64,000 nucleotides of DNA from an uncultured Nitrososphaerota archaeon (GCA_964518475.1 CAZFGR010000001.1:64001-128000); one strand, 5' to 3'; shown: positions 19,414 through 46,162, counted from the first letter of the stretch. The notes: generated by a model not told the origin, from the letters alone. A program made the numbers and translations.

Positions 19414-19893
19414 TGGACATTCTAGTAACACGGGATTAAAGACTTCTCCACAAATTTTGCATTTCTTGTACGCTCTAAGAACCACTTTGATTTTTCTATC
19501 AATAACAGACTCAAATTCTATACCGAGGTACGCGCAGAGATTCTGAATCCCGTAATCCTCAGTAAATACTATGACTTCATGACCTCTCCTGATCAAATCA
19601 AGTGCTGTCGCTATCACACTTATATCTGTTCTAGATAAATCATTAGATAGGCCTAACTGATTTGCTATTCTAACAACATCTTCAATAGATTTTTTGGCTG
19701 GTTCTATTACAGAGAAAGCTATTTTACCAGTTTCCAGAAGAAATTTGGTTTCAACATCCTTGATTTCTTTTAATACGATAGATGGGATTATGAATATGCA
19801 TTCTTGAAGTGGTTTACTGCTACGCAATATCCTAAGAATAGATGATGTATCCAGGACGCAGTATTTTCTAGAATCCTTAGGATATTCTCGCAT
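19345..19893 (-). CDS. nob1: Nob1-like PIN endonuclease with Zn ribbon
   Basis: VLDTSS, LSRTDISVIA, TEDYGIQN and CxxC...CPxCGS motifs. Confidence 0.88.
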   Translation of the reverse strand: MREYPKDSRKYCVLDTSSILRILRSSKPLQECIFIIPSIVLKEIKDVETKFLLETGKIAFSVIEPAKKSIEDVVRIANQLGLSNDLSRTDISVIATALDLIRRGHEVIVFTEDYGIQNLCAYLGIEFESVIDRKIKVVLRAYKKCKICGEVFNPVLLECPSCGSKDFIIIRKRVSRLNTKQS

Positions 19894-28601: not shown

Positions 28602-29937
28602 ATGGCTAGAAAGAAACCACACATAAACTTAGTTATTATCGGGCACGTAGACCATGGAAAGAGCACCACCGTAGGACACTTCCTCTATCTAGTAGGCGCG
28701 ATTGATGATAGAGTAATTAAGAAGTACGAGGAAGAGGCAAAGCAAATCGGAAGAGAATCTTGGAAGTACGCCTGGGTGCTAGATAAACTCGCAGAAGAAA
28801 GAAAGAGAGGACTTACAATAGACCTAGGATACTTCAAATTCGAAACACCAAAGTACATGTTCACAATCATCGATGCCCCTGGACACAGAGACTTCATCAA
28901 GAACATGATTACTGGTGCAAGTCAAGCAGACGCGGCGATTCTAGTAGTTTCCGCTAAAAGAAACGAGTTTGAAGCTGGATATGCTCTAGGAGGACAGACA
29001 CGAGAGCACGCCATCTTAGCTAAGACACTAGGGATCGATCAAATGATTGTTCTCATTAACAAAATGGATGCCGTGAACTGGGACAAATCGGTCTATGAAG
29101 AAATAAAGAACGAAATGCTAAGATTCCTAACAGGCATCGGTTACAAGCCAGACCAAATAAAAGCCGTGATACCTGTAAGCGGACTACTAGGAGACAACCT
29201 GAAGGAGAAGTCTCCTAACATGCCTTGGTATGACGGACCTACACTATACGAAGCCCTCGACCTCCTTGAACCACCCAAACCAATGGTCGATAAGCCGTTC
29301 AGAATGCCCATCCAGAAAGTCTTCAAGATAAAGGGTGTTGGAACAGTAGTAACTGGAAGAGTCGAAACTGGAAAACTAAAGAAAGGAGACCAAGTAATAA
29401 TCCAGCCTCTAGGAAAGCAAACAATCGCACAATCCATCGAGATGCACCACGAACCCCTAGACGAAGCAGTACCAGGAGATAACGTAGGCGTAAACCTCAA
29501 AGGAATATCGGCCGACGAAGTCAAACGTGGTGACGTCATGGGTCATCCCGATAACCCACCAACAGTCGTTGGACCAGGATATGGTACATTCCTAGCTAGA
29601 GTATGGGTCATCTGGCACCCAACAAGCATAAGTGCTGGTTACACACCCGTAATGCATGCGCATACACTACAAGTAGCTACTAGGTTCGTACACTTACACG
29701 CAAAGTACGGACCAAAAGGCGAACTACTAGAAGAAAATCCAAGCTTTATAAAGAAAGGAGAATACGCCCTAGTAGAGCTCGAACCAATCAAACCATCAGT
29801 CATCGAGAAATTCAGCGAATTCCCACCATTAGGGCGCTTCGCTGTACGGGATACCGTGGGGGTTCACGCCCCCACGGCCCGAAATGGGACAGCTAGTGGC
29901 CGTAGGAGTCGTCCAGGAGATCAAGAAGGCGCAATAA
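28602..29937 (+). CDS. tuf: Elongation factor 1-alpha; join(28602..29852,29884..29937), 434 aa after splicing
   Basis: GHVDHGKST, RGLTID, DAPGHRDF and NKMD motifs; the conserved C-terminus MGQLVAVGVVQEIKKAQ* is in another frame after a 31-nt insert. Confidence 0.95.
29853..29883 (+). other. Bulge-helix-bulge (BHB) intron in EF-1alpha pre-mRNA
   Basis: CGGG/CCCG 4-bp central helix, 3-nt bulges AT^A and AA^A, 9-bp GC-rich intron stem; excision restores GRFAVRD-MGQ. Confidence 0.88.
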
Positions 29938-29970
29938 TCCCAGCGGAGCCAATAATTTCTCTTCCCAGAA

Positions 29971-30030
29971 TTTTACCAATTTTTTCTTTTCCCATTGCTA
30001 ATTCTCTCTAAACTTATTTTTGTTTTTTAT
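29971..30030 (+). terminator. Oligo-T terminator region after EF-1alpha
   Basis: T-tracts at 29971-29990 and about 30014-30030 between convergent genes. Confidence 0.5.
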
Positions 30031-30201
30031 GAAAATATTCTGTTGAAGAATTTTGCAAAGCAAAAAGATTAATGCCTATAAGGCTATTTTACTCACTCTC
30101 ACTTGTATAAAATTCCTAGTTTCGATATGAAAGAAAATGTCTTACTTAAGATGAGAGAGAACGTAACCAAGAGTTTTTAGAAAAGGATAAATTAAAGGTT
30201 T

Positions 30202-46062: not shown

Positions 46063-46162
46063 TGGCGGGCCCGGCGGGATTTGAACCCGCGACCTACGGC
46101 TCTCCGCGTGGGATAACTCGACTCCGCAGGCCGTCGCTCTATCCAGGCTGAGCTACGGGCCC
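46063..46162 (-). tRNA. tRNA-Arg(GCG) with 22-nt intron at 37/38 (46102-46123), CCA encoded
   Basis: GGGCCCG/CGGGCCC acceptor stem, ACGGC-CTGCGG[intron]A-GCCGT, GGTTCAAATCCC; the intron 3' end GCGG pairs with CTGC to form the BHB. Confidence 0.95.

What the first reader, a model, noticed from the sequence alone, without database searches (positions are those of the whole stretch)
29841..29937. tRNA-type bulge-helix-bulge intron inside the EF-1alpha coding sequence
Seen: the ORF leaves homology right after GRFAVRD, while the conserved end MGQLVAVGVVQEIKKAQ* begins 31 nt later in another frame. The DNA reads CGGG-ATA-CCGTGGGGG-TTCACG-CCCCCACGG-CCCG-AAA-TGGGACAGC. This gives a 4-bp central helix (29847-50 with 29878-81), two 3-nt bulges on opposite strands, a 9-bp intron stem, and an imperfect exon-exon helix (GCTGT/ACAGC). 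Established: the archaeal splicing endonuclease EndA cuts each bulge after its second nucleotide. Applying that rule removes exactly 29853-29883 and joins GAT|ATG, giving RDMG in frame and a 434-aa protein. BHB introns are well known in tRNA and rRNA; the mRNA case I know is crenarchaeal cbf5. I do not know of one in EF-1alpha or in an archaeon with Asgard-type gene content. Inference: synthesis of an essential, abundant translation factor depends on EndA plus ligase, a possible prokaryotic parallel to non-spliceosomal HAC1/XBP1 splicing.
Basis: partly seen in the sequence, partly recalled or inferred. Interest (0 to 1): 0.95.

Follow-up and report, generated by a model that had tools for sequence, protein, structure and literature searches.

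The report
tRNA-type intron splitting EF-1alpha gene
The only gene for the essential translation factor EF-1alpha in this Njordarchaeales (Asgard) archaeon is split by a 31-base intron of the kind normally found in tRNAs, so the correct protein can very probably be made only after the tRNA-splicing enzymes cut and rejoin its mRNA, which has been reported for almost no other archaeal protein gene.

Summary
EF-1alpha (28602-29852) loses homology after GRFAVRD. A 31-nt insert (29853-29883) follows, and the conserved last 17 codons resume at 29884 in another frame.

[quoted passage not shown] Cutting after the second base of each bulge gives ...RD|MG... and a 434-aa protein.

- **Real in DNA:** independent contigs from other studies span the insert without gaps.
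- **Single copy:** no second EF-1alpha gene was found in the genome.
- **Conserved structure:** four haplotypes of this intron keep every pair, with two compensatory changes. The loop and the middle base of the second bulge vary.
- **More forms:** close relatives carry an unrelated 46-nt BHB intron at the same site, a 49-nt one 6 nt upstream, or none. Another Asgard family has 30-nt BHB introns elsewhere in EF-1alpha.
- **Machinery:** the genome encodes an (alpha-beta)2 EndA with the broad-specificity loop, and RtcB. It also carries BHB introns in uS12 and uL2.

No RNA data exist, so splicing itself is inferred.

This is a new member of the cbf5-type archaeal mRNA introns. The scan had already noted this stretch, and the uS12 and uL2 introns elsewhere in this genome.

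The parts
28602..29852 (+). EF-1alpha exon 1 (417 codons, ends ...GRFAVRD)
   Evidence: Translation. Pfam GTP_EFTU, GTP_EFTU_D2 and GTP_EFTU_D3/GTP-eEF1A_C. It is the only EF-1alpha in the genome.
29853..29883 (+). 31-nt BHB intron (74% GC in a 38% GC genome); removing it joins GAT|ATG
   Evidence: The same site and length occur in G002, G001 and ERZ584659. The insert is present in independent DNA contigs.
29884..29937 (+). EF-1alpha exon 2 (MGQLVAVGVVQEIKKAQ plus stop)
   Evidence: It aligns with the C-termini of intronless relatives. Codon differences are 8 synonymous to 2 non-synonymous against G001, and 2 to 0 against G002.
29847..29850 (+). 5' strand of the 4-bp central helix (CGGG; the Arg codon CGG plus the G of GAT)
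   Evidence: Pairs with 29878-29881. It is invariant in all six site-A carriers. CGG is used once among 16 Arg codons of exon 1. Intronless congeners have AGA or CGC here.
29851..29853 (+). 5' bulge AUA; predicted cut after 29852
   Evidence: Unpaired in the minimum-energy fold. Invariant in carriers.
29854..29877 (+). Intron hairpin h': 10-bp stem (29854-63 with 29868-77) and loop 29864-67
   Evidence: All 40 cells of this stem are paired across four haplotypes, with two compensatory G-C to A-U changes and two one-sided changes.
29878..29881 (+). 3' strand of the central helix (CCCG)
   Evidence: It is also kept in the unrelated 46-nt intron.
29882..29884 (+). 3' bulge AAA (ANA in relatives); predicted cut after 29883
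   Evidence: The middle base is A, U or G in different haplotypes.
29845..29846 (+). Short outer helix h (U29845-G29886 and A29846-U29885), the only invariant exon-exon pairs
Evidence: helix 1.

Best explanation
A genuine archaeal bulge-helix-bulge (BHB) intron of 31 nt interrupts the single EF-1alpha gene of this Njordarchaeales archaeon, 17 codons before its end.

In the transcript the intron forms a GC-rich hairpin. The hairpin stacks on a 4-bp helix made of exon bases CGGG and intron bases CCCG, and the helix is flanked by two 3-nt bulges.

Inferred steps:
1. The (alpha-beta)2 splicing endonuclease EndA cuts after the second base of each bulge, after 29852 and after 29883. This leaves a 2',3'-cyclic phosphate and a 5'-OH.
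2. RtcB joins the exons and probably circularises the 31-nt intron.
3. The spliced mRNA encodes a normal 434-aa EF-1alpha (...GRFAVRD|MGQLVAVGVVQEIKKAQ).

Unspliced mRNA would give a 469-aa protein. In it the last beta-strand of domain 3 is replaced by 52 unrelated residues.

What is shown: the anatomy, presence in DNA, single-copy status, conservation and covariation, the frame-specific constraint on exon 2, and the presence of the enzymes. What is inferred: the cleavage, the ligation and their efficiency.
For: 1. **Anatomy.** The unconstrained fold gives the canonical helix-bulge-helix geometry. Its strand order (helix, then bulge, then h' on the 5' strand) matches the canonical 37/38 intron of the tRNA-Arg gene in this window.

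2. **Frame.** The cut rule joins GAT|ATG and restores the conserved C-terminus.

3. **DNA reality.** Contigs from two other studies span the insert without gaps.

4. **Single copy.** Only one EF-1alpha was found in the 91%-complete genome. The next hit is 30% identical.

5. **Conservation.**
   - G000 and G002 are only 52% identical at third codon positions of exon 1.
   - The same pair is identical at 30 of 31 intron bases and 52 of 54 exon-2 bases.
   - In 60-nt windows the gene scores 0.72-0.88 identity, and the window holding the intron scores 0.98.

6. **Covariation.**
   - Across four haplotypes 64 of 64 cells are paired.
   - Two pairs change on both sides (G-C to A-U) and two change on one side.
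   - Sliding the 3' partners by 1-3 columns leaves only 38-50% paired.

7. **Independent instances that obey the same rule.**
   - A 46-nt intron at the same site has an unrelated 16-bp stem but the same CGGG/CCCG helix and AUA/AGA bulges. It occurs in six contigs from several samples.
   - A 49-nt intron lies 6 nt upstream, with helix CGCC/GGCG and bulges AUA/AGA.
   - 30-nt introns with in-frame stops lie at DFI|KNMITG and DKY|YYT in another Asgard family. Their stems covary, CGCUG/CAGCG against UGCAGC/GUUGCA.

8. **Exon-intron coupling.** Carriers use the rare Arg codon CGG that forms the central helix. Intronless congeners use AGA or CGC.

9. **Exon 2 is constrained in the spliced frame**.

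10. **Machinery.**
    - The EndA alpha subunit is most similar to the A. pernix alpha subunit. It keeps Tyr/His/Lys, and has lysines at the positions of K44 and R46 of the Crenarchaea-specific loop (PMC3241643).
    - A second paralogue lacks the catalytic residues, as a beta subunit does.
    - RtcB scores 500 bits.
    - Asgard EndA is reported as (alpha-beta)2 with this loop (PMC5829648).

11. **Same genome.** The 33-nt uS12 intron and the 47-nt uL2 intron were verified here by translation.
Against: There is no RNA, RT-PCR or peptide evidence.

The exon-exon helix that should hold the two exons together after cleavage is only 2 bp, far weaker than in a tRNA. How the ends are kept together for ligation is therefore open.

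Archaeal transcription and translation are coupled, so ribosomes could reach the intron before EndA does.

This particular intron has no stop codon in the incoming frame, so on this locus alone a recoding event cannot be formally excluded.

The covariation rests on only four haplotypes, and 32 of 500 shuffles reach the observed values.
Confidence: 0.87

Rival explanations
1. Translational recoding. The ribosome either bypasses the 31 nt (a hop, as in T4 gene 60) or reads through the insert and shifts +1. No RNA cutting is involved.
For: A strong hairpin sits right after the take-off codon, and the incoming frame has no stop inside this intron. This formally permits a read-through plus +1 shift.
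Against: A hop needs matching take-off and landing codons. The take-off codon is GAU. The triplet before AUG is GAA (own genome and G002), GAU (G001) or GAG (ERZ584659 and the 46-nt form). At site B it is AUA against AGA.

The analogous inserts in uS12 and in the other Asgard EF-1alpha genes carry in-frame stops.

Recoding does not explain the invariant 4-bp helix plus two 3-nt bulges, the covarying stems, or the dependence on the CGG codon.

A 10-residue insertion would disrupt the last beta-strand region of domain 3.
Confidence: 0.04
2. The gene is a decaying or inactivated copy. The working EF-1alpha lies in the unassembled 9% of the genome.
For: The genome is a 91%-complete metagenome-assembled genome in 121 contigs.
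Against: No second copy was found in G000, G001 or G002.

The interruption is kept in at least four diverged lineages with 81-94% amino-acid identity. Exon 1 is otherwise intact, and exon 2 is under purifying selection in the shifted frame.

The insert is more conserved than synonymous sites.
Confidence: 0.03
3. The insert is a sequencing or assembly artefact.
For: The insert is a GC-rich hairpin in metagenome-assembled DNA. De Bruijn contigs break nearby, at 29886-29893.
Against: Contigs from other studies cover the insert with no gaps. The same insert, with substitutions, appears in separate assemblies from JGI, ENA, NCBI and Logan. All three members of its protein cluster are the 469-aa read-through form.
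Confidence: 0.01
4. It is a real BHB intron, but splicing is partial or regulated. EndA/RtcB activity would then gate how much functional EF-1alpha is made, or an alternative C-terminal form would have a role.
For: The outer helix is weak. The same genome places such introns in uS12 and uL2 as well, all core translation genes.
Against: The read-through tails differ in length and sequence between lineages (469, 461, 467 and 476 aa), so the unspliced product is not conserved. Close relatives manage without the intron. That fits a tolerated selfish or neutral insert better than a regulator.
Confidence: 0.15

Closest known systems
cbf5 pre-mRNA BHB intron of Crenarchaeota (Desulfurococcales and Sulfolobales; Watanabe 2002, Yoshinari 2006, Yokobori 2009, PMC2738675)
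   Same: It is a short BHB intron inside a protein-coding gene. It is removed by the tRNA splicing endonuclease and is associated with the hetero-oligomeric (alpha-beta)2 EndA. Its distribution is patchy, with gain and loss among close relatives.
   Different: The host gene here is EF-1alpha, an abundant core translation factor. The lineage is Asgard (Njordarchaeales). Several unrelated intron forms occupy one site, with a second site 6 nt away. Splicing is not yet shown experimentally. The cbf5 homologue of this genome has an unbroken 340-aa frame.
BHB intron in the 5' UTR of HVO_1309 mRNA, Haloferax volcanii (Schwarz 2020, PMC7714728)
   Same: It is an mRNA substrate of EndA with a BHB motif. 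The paper states that, apart from this case, cbf5 is the only reported BHB intron in an archaeal mRNA.
   Different: That intron lies in the untranslated leader, so the protein sequence does not depend on its removal. Here the reading frame does.
Canonical and non-canonical archaeal tRNA and rRNA BHB introns (hBHBh', HBh')
   Same: The 4-bp helix and two 3-nt bulges are the same, as are the cut positions and the enzymes. The tRNA-Arg(GCG) gene in this window has a 22-nt intron at 37/38 with bulges GGA and AGA.
   Different: There is no tRNA body to hold the exons together, and the outer helix is only 2 bp. The product is a coding sequence.
HAC1/XBP1 unconventional mRNA splicing in eukaryotes
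   Same: It is non-spliceosomal, protein-only splicing of an mRNA. It changes the C-terminal reading frame, and the exons are sealed by the tRNA ligase (RtcB in metazoa).
   Different: The cut is made by Ire1 at two stem-loops, not by a Sen/EndA enzyme at a BHB motif. It is stress-regulated. The resemblance is functional, not one of homology.
Translational bypassing (T4 gene 60; mitochondrial byp elements)
   Same: A short non-coding gap with a hairpin lies inside a coding sequence and must be skipped to make the protein.
   Different: Bypassing needs matched take-off and landing codons and no BHB geometry. The codons do not match here.

Membership tests
Archaeal BHB intron (EndA substrate) | [quoted passage not shown] | tested here: met
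   CGGG/CCCG with bulges AUA and AAA appear in the unconstrained fold. The helix and bulge lengths are invariant in all carriers.
Archaeal BHB intron (EndA substrate) | Flanking helices: h' (intron side) and h (exon side) for the strict hBHBh' form | tested here: inconclusive
The motif is best described as relaxed (HBh'-like).
Archaeal BHB intron (EndA substrate) | Cuts after the second base of each bulge give a functional joined product | tested here: met
   The rule joins GAT|ATG and gives a 434-aa EF-1alpha with the conserved C-terminus. It also works for the 46-nt, 49-nt and 30-nt introns.
Archaeal BHB intron (EndA substrate) | The host encodes a splicing endonuclease able to take relaxed motifs outside tRNA ((alpha-beta)2 or epsilon2 type with the specificity loop) | tested here: met
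   The alpha subunit scores 103.7 bits to PF01974. Its best solved relative is A. pernix alpha (3p1z_B), with Tyr/His/Lys present and lysines at the positions of K44 and R46 of the loop. The beta paralogue lacks the catalytic residues.
Archaeal BHB intron (EndA substrate) | The host encodes the RNA ligase RtcB | tested here: met
   A PF01139 match of 500.6 bits lies at G000:C5:1-1212.
Archaeal BHB intron (EndA substrate) | Cleavage and exon ligation observed in RNA (spliced junction, circular intron) or in vitro | not testable with these tools
   No RNA run holding this stretch was listed. Among 5.8 billion predicted proteins, no spliced-type 434-aa protein at 90% identity or more was found.
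cbf5-type pre-mRNA intron (protein-coding BHB intron) | The intron lies inside the coding sequence of a single-copy gene, so the correct protein needs splicing | tested here: met
   The intron is 31 nt (3n+1) and lies 17 codons before the stop. There is only one EF-1alpha in the genome.
Programmed translational bypass (gene 60 type) | Identical take-off and landing codons flank the gap | tested here: not met
   The take-off codon is GAU. The triplet before AUG is GAA, GAU or GAG in different haplotypes. At site B it is AUA against AGA.

The most novel reading that the evidence does not exclude
BHB micro-introns may be an actively turning-over, possibly mobile, class of mRNA introns in Asgard archaea that lands repeatedly in highly expressed translation genes.

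The evidence that permits this reading:
- Within one 90%-identity EF-1alpha cluster there is a 46-nt intron at the RD|MG site, a 49-nt intron 6 nt upstream, and an intronless allele.
- A related clade has an unrelated 31-nt intron at the same RD|MG site.
- Another Asgard family has 30-nt introns at two further EF-1alpha positions, in 5 of 79 genomes.
- This genome also has such introns in uS12 and uL2.

This would imply a mechanism of intron gain. Candidates are reverse EndA/RtcB splicing into BHB-competent sites followed by reverse transcription, or recombination with co-conversion of the flanks. It would also mean a routine layer of protein-only mRNA splicing in the closest prokaryotic relatives of eukaryotes.
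Probability: 0.45. Interest if true: 0.92.

Novelty: new member of a known kind. Interest (0 to 1): 0.8.

Why it matters
Archaeal protein genes are treated as intron-free. A 2020 paper on the splicing endonuclease states that cbf5 is the only coding-region BHB intron reported, alongside one 5'-UTR case in Haloferax (PMC7714728).

Here the most abundant translation factor of an Asgard archaeon depends on the tRNA-splicing enzymes. Relatives show several independent intron forms and positions in the same gene.

Three consequences follow:
1. **Annotation.** Public records carry these genes as 461-476-aa proteins with nonsense tails. Marker-gene alignments and phylogenies of Asgard EF-1alpha and ribosomal proteins therefore contain unrecognised errors.
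2. **A testable system.** It offers a way to study how exons are held together and ligated without a tRNA body, and how splicing competes with coupled translation.
3. **Intron gain and loss.** The polymorphism among close relatives makes intron gain and loss in the archaeal relatives of eukaryotes directly testable.

Tried and rejected
- **RNA evidence.** No RNA holder was listed for the stretch, so expression and splicing could not be examined.
- **Spliced-form protein.** The search of 5.8 billion predicted proteins for a spliced-type 434-aa protein close to this one found only read-through forms.
- **Mirror-topology control.** My first genome-wide control, which counted the mirror-image topology, was invalid. 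The reverse complement of a BHB motif is its mirror, so the counts must be equal.
- **Other BHB candidates in this genome.** ORF-restoration screening gave 436 weak hits. Eight were inspected:
  - Six look like gene boundaries or intergenic hairpins: C6:73090-73206, C46:6277-6367, C3:25832-25938, C6:8457-8543, C16:3484-3590 and C29:12385-12501.
  - C1:226558-226604 showed no evidence of an intron.
  - C3:80405-80442 looks like a tRNA.
  - A further hit, window 19824-19891(-), joins what look like two separate genes and is not an intron.
- **G003.** Its EF-1alpha leaves homology near the same place.
  - I tested a trans-splicing or split-gene idea and found neither exon 2 nor a complementary BHB half in its 66%-complete genome.
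  - A close relative at 88% nucleotide identity is intact and intronless, and the sequences part 2 nt after the intron site.
  - I therefore treat it as a rearrangement or chimera.
- **Low-scoring EF-1alpha matches in other Asgard families.** These are an in-frame insertion of about 40 aa (G098, G106) or contig breaks (G135, G052), not introns.
- **Rfam.** No family matches 29600-30100.
- **Dispersed copies.** There is no second copy of the intron sequence in the genome.

Full report
**Observation**

The window is G000:C1:64001-128000 of a 2.33-Mb, 91%-complete metagenome-assembled genome. Its nearest named relatives are Candidatus Njordarchaeota/Njordarchaeales MAGs.

An ORF starting at 28602 encodes EF-1alpha. 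It matches Pfam GTP_EFTU, GTP_EFTU_D2 and the C-terminal domain models up to about position 90 of 101-106, and ends that homology at GRFAVRD (29852). The frame then runs on for 52 unrelated codons. The conserved end MGQLVAVGVVQEIKKAQ* is encoded at 29884-29937 in a different frame.

An unconstrained RNA fold of 29836-29898 gives these elements (-32.7 kcal/mol, z = -3.8):
- a 4-bp helix, CGGG 29847-50 with CCCG 29878-81;
- an unpaired AUA;
- a 10-bp stem with a 4-nt loop;
- an unpaired stretch containing AAA.

On each strand the order is helix, then bulge. That is the order in a canonical archaeal 37/38 tRNA intron, including the 22-nt intron of the tRNA-Arg(GCG) gene at 46063-46162(-) in this window. 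Cutting after the second base of each bulge removes 29853-29883 and joins GAT|ATG. The result is 417 + 17 = 434 residues.

**Artefact or pseudogene?**

- Contigs from other studies span the insert without gaps. X2 record 8 covers 29475-29893 with no differences. X4 record 15 covers 29767-29915 with five substitutions.
- The genome has one EF-1alpha. The next-best hit is 30% identical.
- All three members of its 90% protein cluster are the 469-aa read-through ORF. NCBI names one of them EF-1 subunit alpha, so the intron is unrecognised in public annotation.

**Comparative evidence at this site (site A, RD|MG)**

Among seven genomes of the same genus, G000, G002 and G001 carry a 31-nt insert at exactly this position. 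G004, G005 and G006 do not, and neither does any of the 33 more distant relatives whose locus I read. A fourth haplotype comes from ENA sample ERZ584659.

Aligned, the four haplotypes behave as follows:
- They keep all 16 pairs in all 64 cells.
- Two stem pairs change on both sides (G-C to A-U) and two change on one side.
- The loop differs freely.
- The middle base of the 3' bulge is A, U or G.
- Sliding the 3' partners by 1-3 columns drops pairing to 38-50%.

G000 and G002 are only 52% identical at third codon positions of exon 1. Yet they are identical at 30 of 31 intron bases and 52 of 54 exon-2 bases. The 60-nt window that holds the intron is the most conserved of the gene, at 0.98 against 0.72-0.88.

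Exon 2 differs from G001 by 8 synonymous and 2 non-synonymous codons, so it is translated in the frame reached only after a 3n+1 deletion.

The Arg codon that forms the central helix is CGG in all carriers. It is the only CGG among the 16 Arg codons of exon 1, of which 11 are AGA. Intronless congeners use AGA or CGC. Only A29846-U29885 and U29845-G29886 are.

**Other introns that obey the same rule**

- *46-nt intron at site A.* The protein cluster of a sister lineage holds 476-aa ORFs. Their DNA (six contigs from JGI, ENA and Logan) has a 46-nt intron at site A with an unrelated 16-bp stem, the same CGGG/CCCG helix, and AUA/AGA bulges. Removal gives GRFAIRD|MAQLVAVGVIKEIKKSS*.
- *49-nt intron at site B.* The same 90% cluster holds 463-aa ORFs with a 49-nt intron 6 nt upstream, with helix CGCC/GGCG and bulges AUA/AGA. 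Removal gives GRFAI|RDMGQLVAVGVV.
- *Intronless allele.* The cluster also holds a 432-aa intronless member.
- *Tree.* On an EF-1alpha tree the site-A carriers are not monophyletic. The pattern therefore needs several gains, several losses, or both.
- *Another Asgard family.* I searched 400 genomes of the phylum with an intronless EF-1alpha and then 86 genomes of one other family. Five genomes have about 30 extra in-frame bases containing a stop. The three I inspected are 30-nt BHB introns at DFI|KNMITG (G369 and G339, with stems CGCUG/CAGCG against UGCAGC/GUUGCA) and at DKY|YYTIID (G388). Each restores a universally conserved motif exactly.

**The same genome**

A scan for hairpin-type BHB motifs ranks three sites at the top: the tuf site, C1:172381-172417(+) and C1:205522-205572(-). 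Translating across the predicted joints restores the C-termini of uS12 (...GRSMGD|IPGVKFRVVKV...) and uL2. This confirms two leads from earlier notes of this scan.

The tuf intron has no second copy in the genome. It is 74% GC in a 38% GC genome.

**Machinery**

- Two PF01974 genes are present.
- One is a 215-aa protein most similar to the catalytic alpha subunit of the A. pernix (alpha-beta)2 enzyme. It has the Tyr/His/Lys triad, and lysines at the positions of K44 and R46 of the Crenarchaea-specific loop that confers broad substrate range (PMC3241643).
- The other is a 203-aa protein that lacks those residues, as a structural beta subunit does.
- This agrees with the published view that Asgard archaea have (alpha-beta)2 EndA with this loop (PMC5829648).
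- RtcB is present at 500 bits.

**Mechanism and rivals**

The best explanation is EndA cleavage at both bulges followed by RtcB ligation (confidence 0.87).

- *Translational bypassing* fails its defining test, because take-off and landing triplets do not match. It also cannot explain the stop-containing inserts.
- *A pseudogene* is contradicted by single-copy status and by frame-specific constraint.
- *An assembly artefact* is contradicted by the independent contigs.
- *Regulated or partial splicing* is possible but has no support. The read-through tails are not conserved, and close relatives lack the intron.

Open points are the very short exon-exon helix and the race with coupled translation.

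**Comparison with what is known**

The closest known case is the cbf5 pre-mRNA intron of Crenarchaeota, which is likewise linked to hetero-oligomeric EndA and shows gain and loss. Schwarz et al. 2020 state that cbf5 is the only BHB intron reported in an archaeal coding mRNA, and add a 5'-UTR case in Haloferax.

Full-text searches for BHB, Asgard, protein-coding or pre-mRNA introns, and EF-1alpha found no report of this intron. A 2026 preprint on Asgard tRNA introns does not treat mRNAs.

I file this as a new member of a known kind. It has high interest because of the host gene, the lineage and the evidence for rapid turnover. An earlier first-stage reading of this scan had already noted this same stretch, and other notes cover the uS12 and uL2 introns and a permuted 5S rRNA in the same genome.

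Noticed in passing
L008 (G003:C39) about 1842-1900; identical in L085: The EF-1alpha of congener G003 shares sequence up to AGAGATAT, 2 nt past the intron site. It then continues with unrelated DNA and ends ...GRFAIRDICKIFPRIFC*. Exon 2 was not found in the 66%-complete genome. A relative at 88% nucleotide identity (L194-L197) is intact and intronless. This is probably a rearrangement or an assembly chimera.
   Followed up: partly
window 46063-46162 (-): A tRNA-Arg(GCG) gene of 100 nt has a canonical 22-nt BHB intron at 37/38 (bulges GGA and AGA) and an encoded 3' CCA.
   Followed up: partly
G000:C1:172381-172417 (+) and G000:C1:205522-205572 (-), outside the window: A 33-nt BHB intron with an in-frame TGA lies in uS12, and a 47-nt BHB intron lies in uL2. 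Both restore conserved C-terminal motifs when the same cut rule is applied.
   Followed up: yes
window 29821-29937 compared with L007 (G002): The intron and exon 2 are 96-98% identical between G000 and G002, while the rest of the gene is about 80% identical (52% at third positions). This could reflect structural constraint, or a recent exchange of the intron together with its flanks.
   Followed up: partly
window 19824-19891 (-): A 64-nt BHB-like hairpin (helix GCGA/UUGC, 12-bp stem) lies between a ferredoxin-like ORF and a downstream ORF. Removing it fuses the two frames, but they look like separate genes. It is probably an intergenic hairpin.
   Followed up: partly
G000:C10:80-114 (-), C61:299-333 (+), C27:12470-12506 (+): Three similar BHB-like hairpins (GCGG-uga-UCCUAGCC...GGCUAGGA-CCGC-gau) sit near contig ends. 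They may be tRNA introns or rRNA processing stems.
   Followed up: no
L170 (G153:C32) codon 177 of EF-1alpha: A single in-frame TGA with no extra length (EITG*LKQVGY) occurs in an otherwise intact EF-1alpha of another Asgard genome. It could be a sequencing error, recoding or a pseudogene.
   Followed up: no
L180/L181/L175 (G098:C1:2796946-2799860) and the G106 equivalents: One Asgard family has an EF-1alpha with an in-frame insertion of about 40 aa between residues about 204 and 209. A second EF-1alpha-like paralogue (38-41% identity) lies directly downstream.
   Followed up: no
G329:C197:5996-6328 and G322:C45:20290-20577: Two more genomes of the other Asgard family have an in-frame TGA, and in G329 about 30 extra bases, in the G-domain region of EF-1alpha. 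They are likely further BHB introns but were not inspected.
   Followed up: no
L205 (G000:C11:12928-13266): The cbf5/TruB-type gene of this genome lies in an unbroken 340-aa frame. The classical host of archaeal mRNA introns therefore appears to be uninterrupted here.
   Followed up: partly
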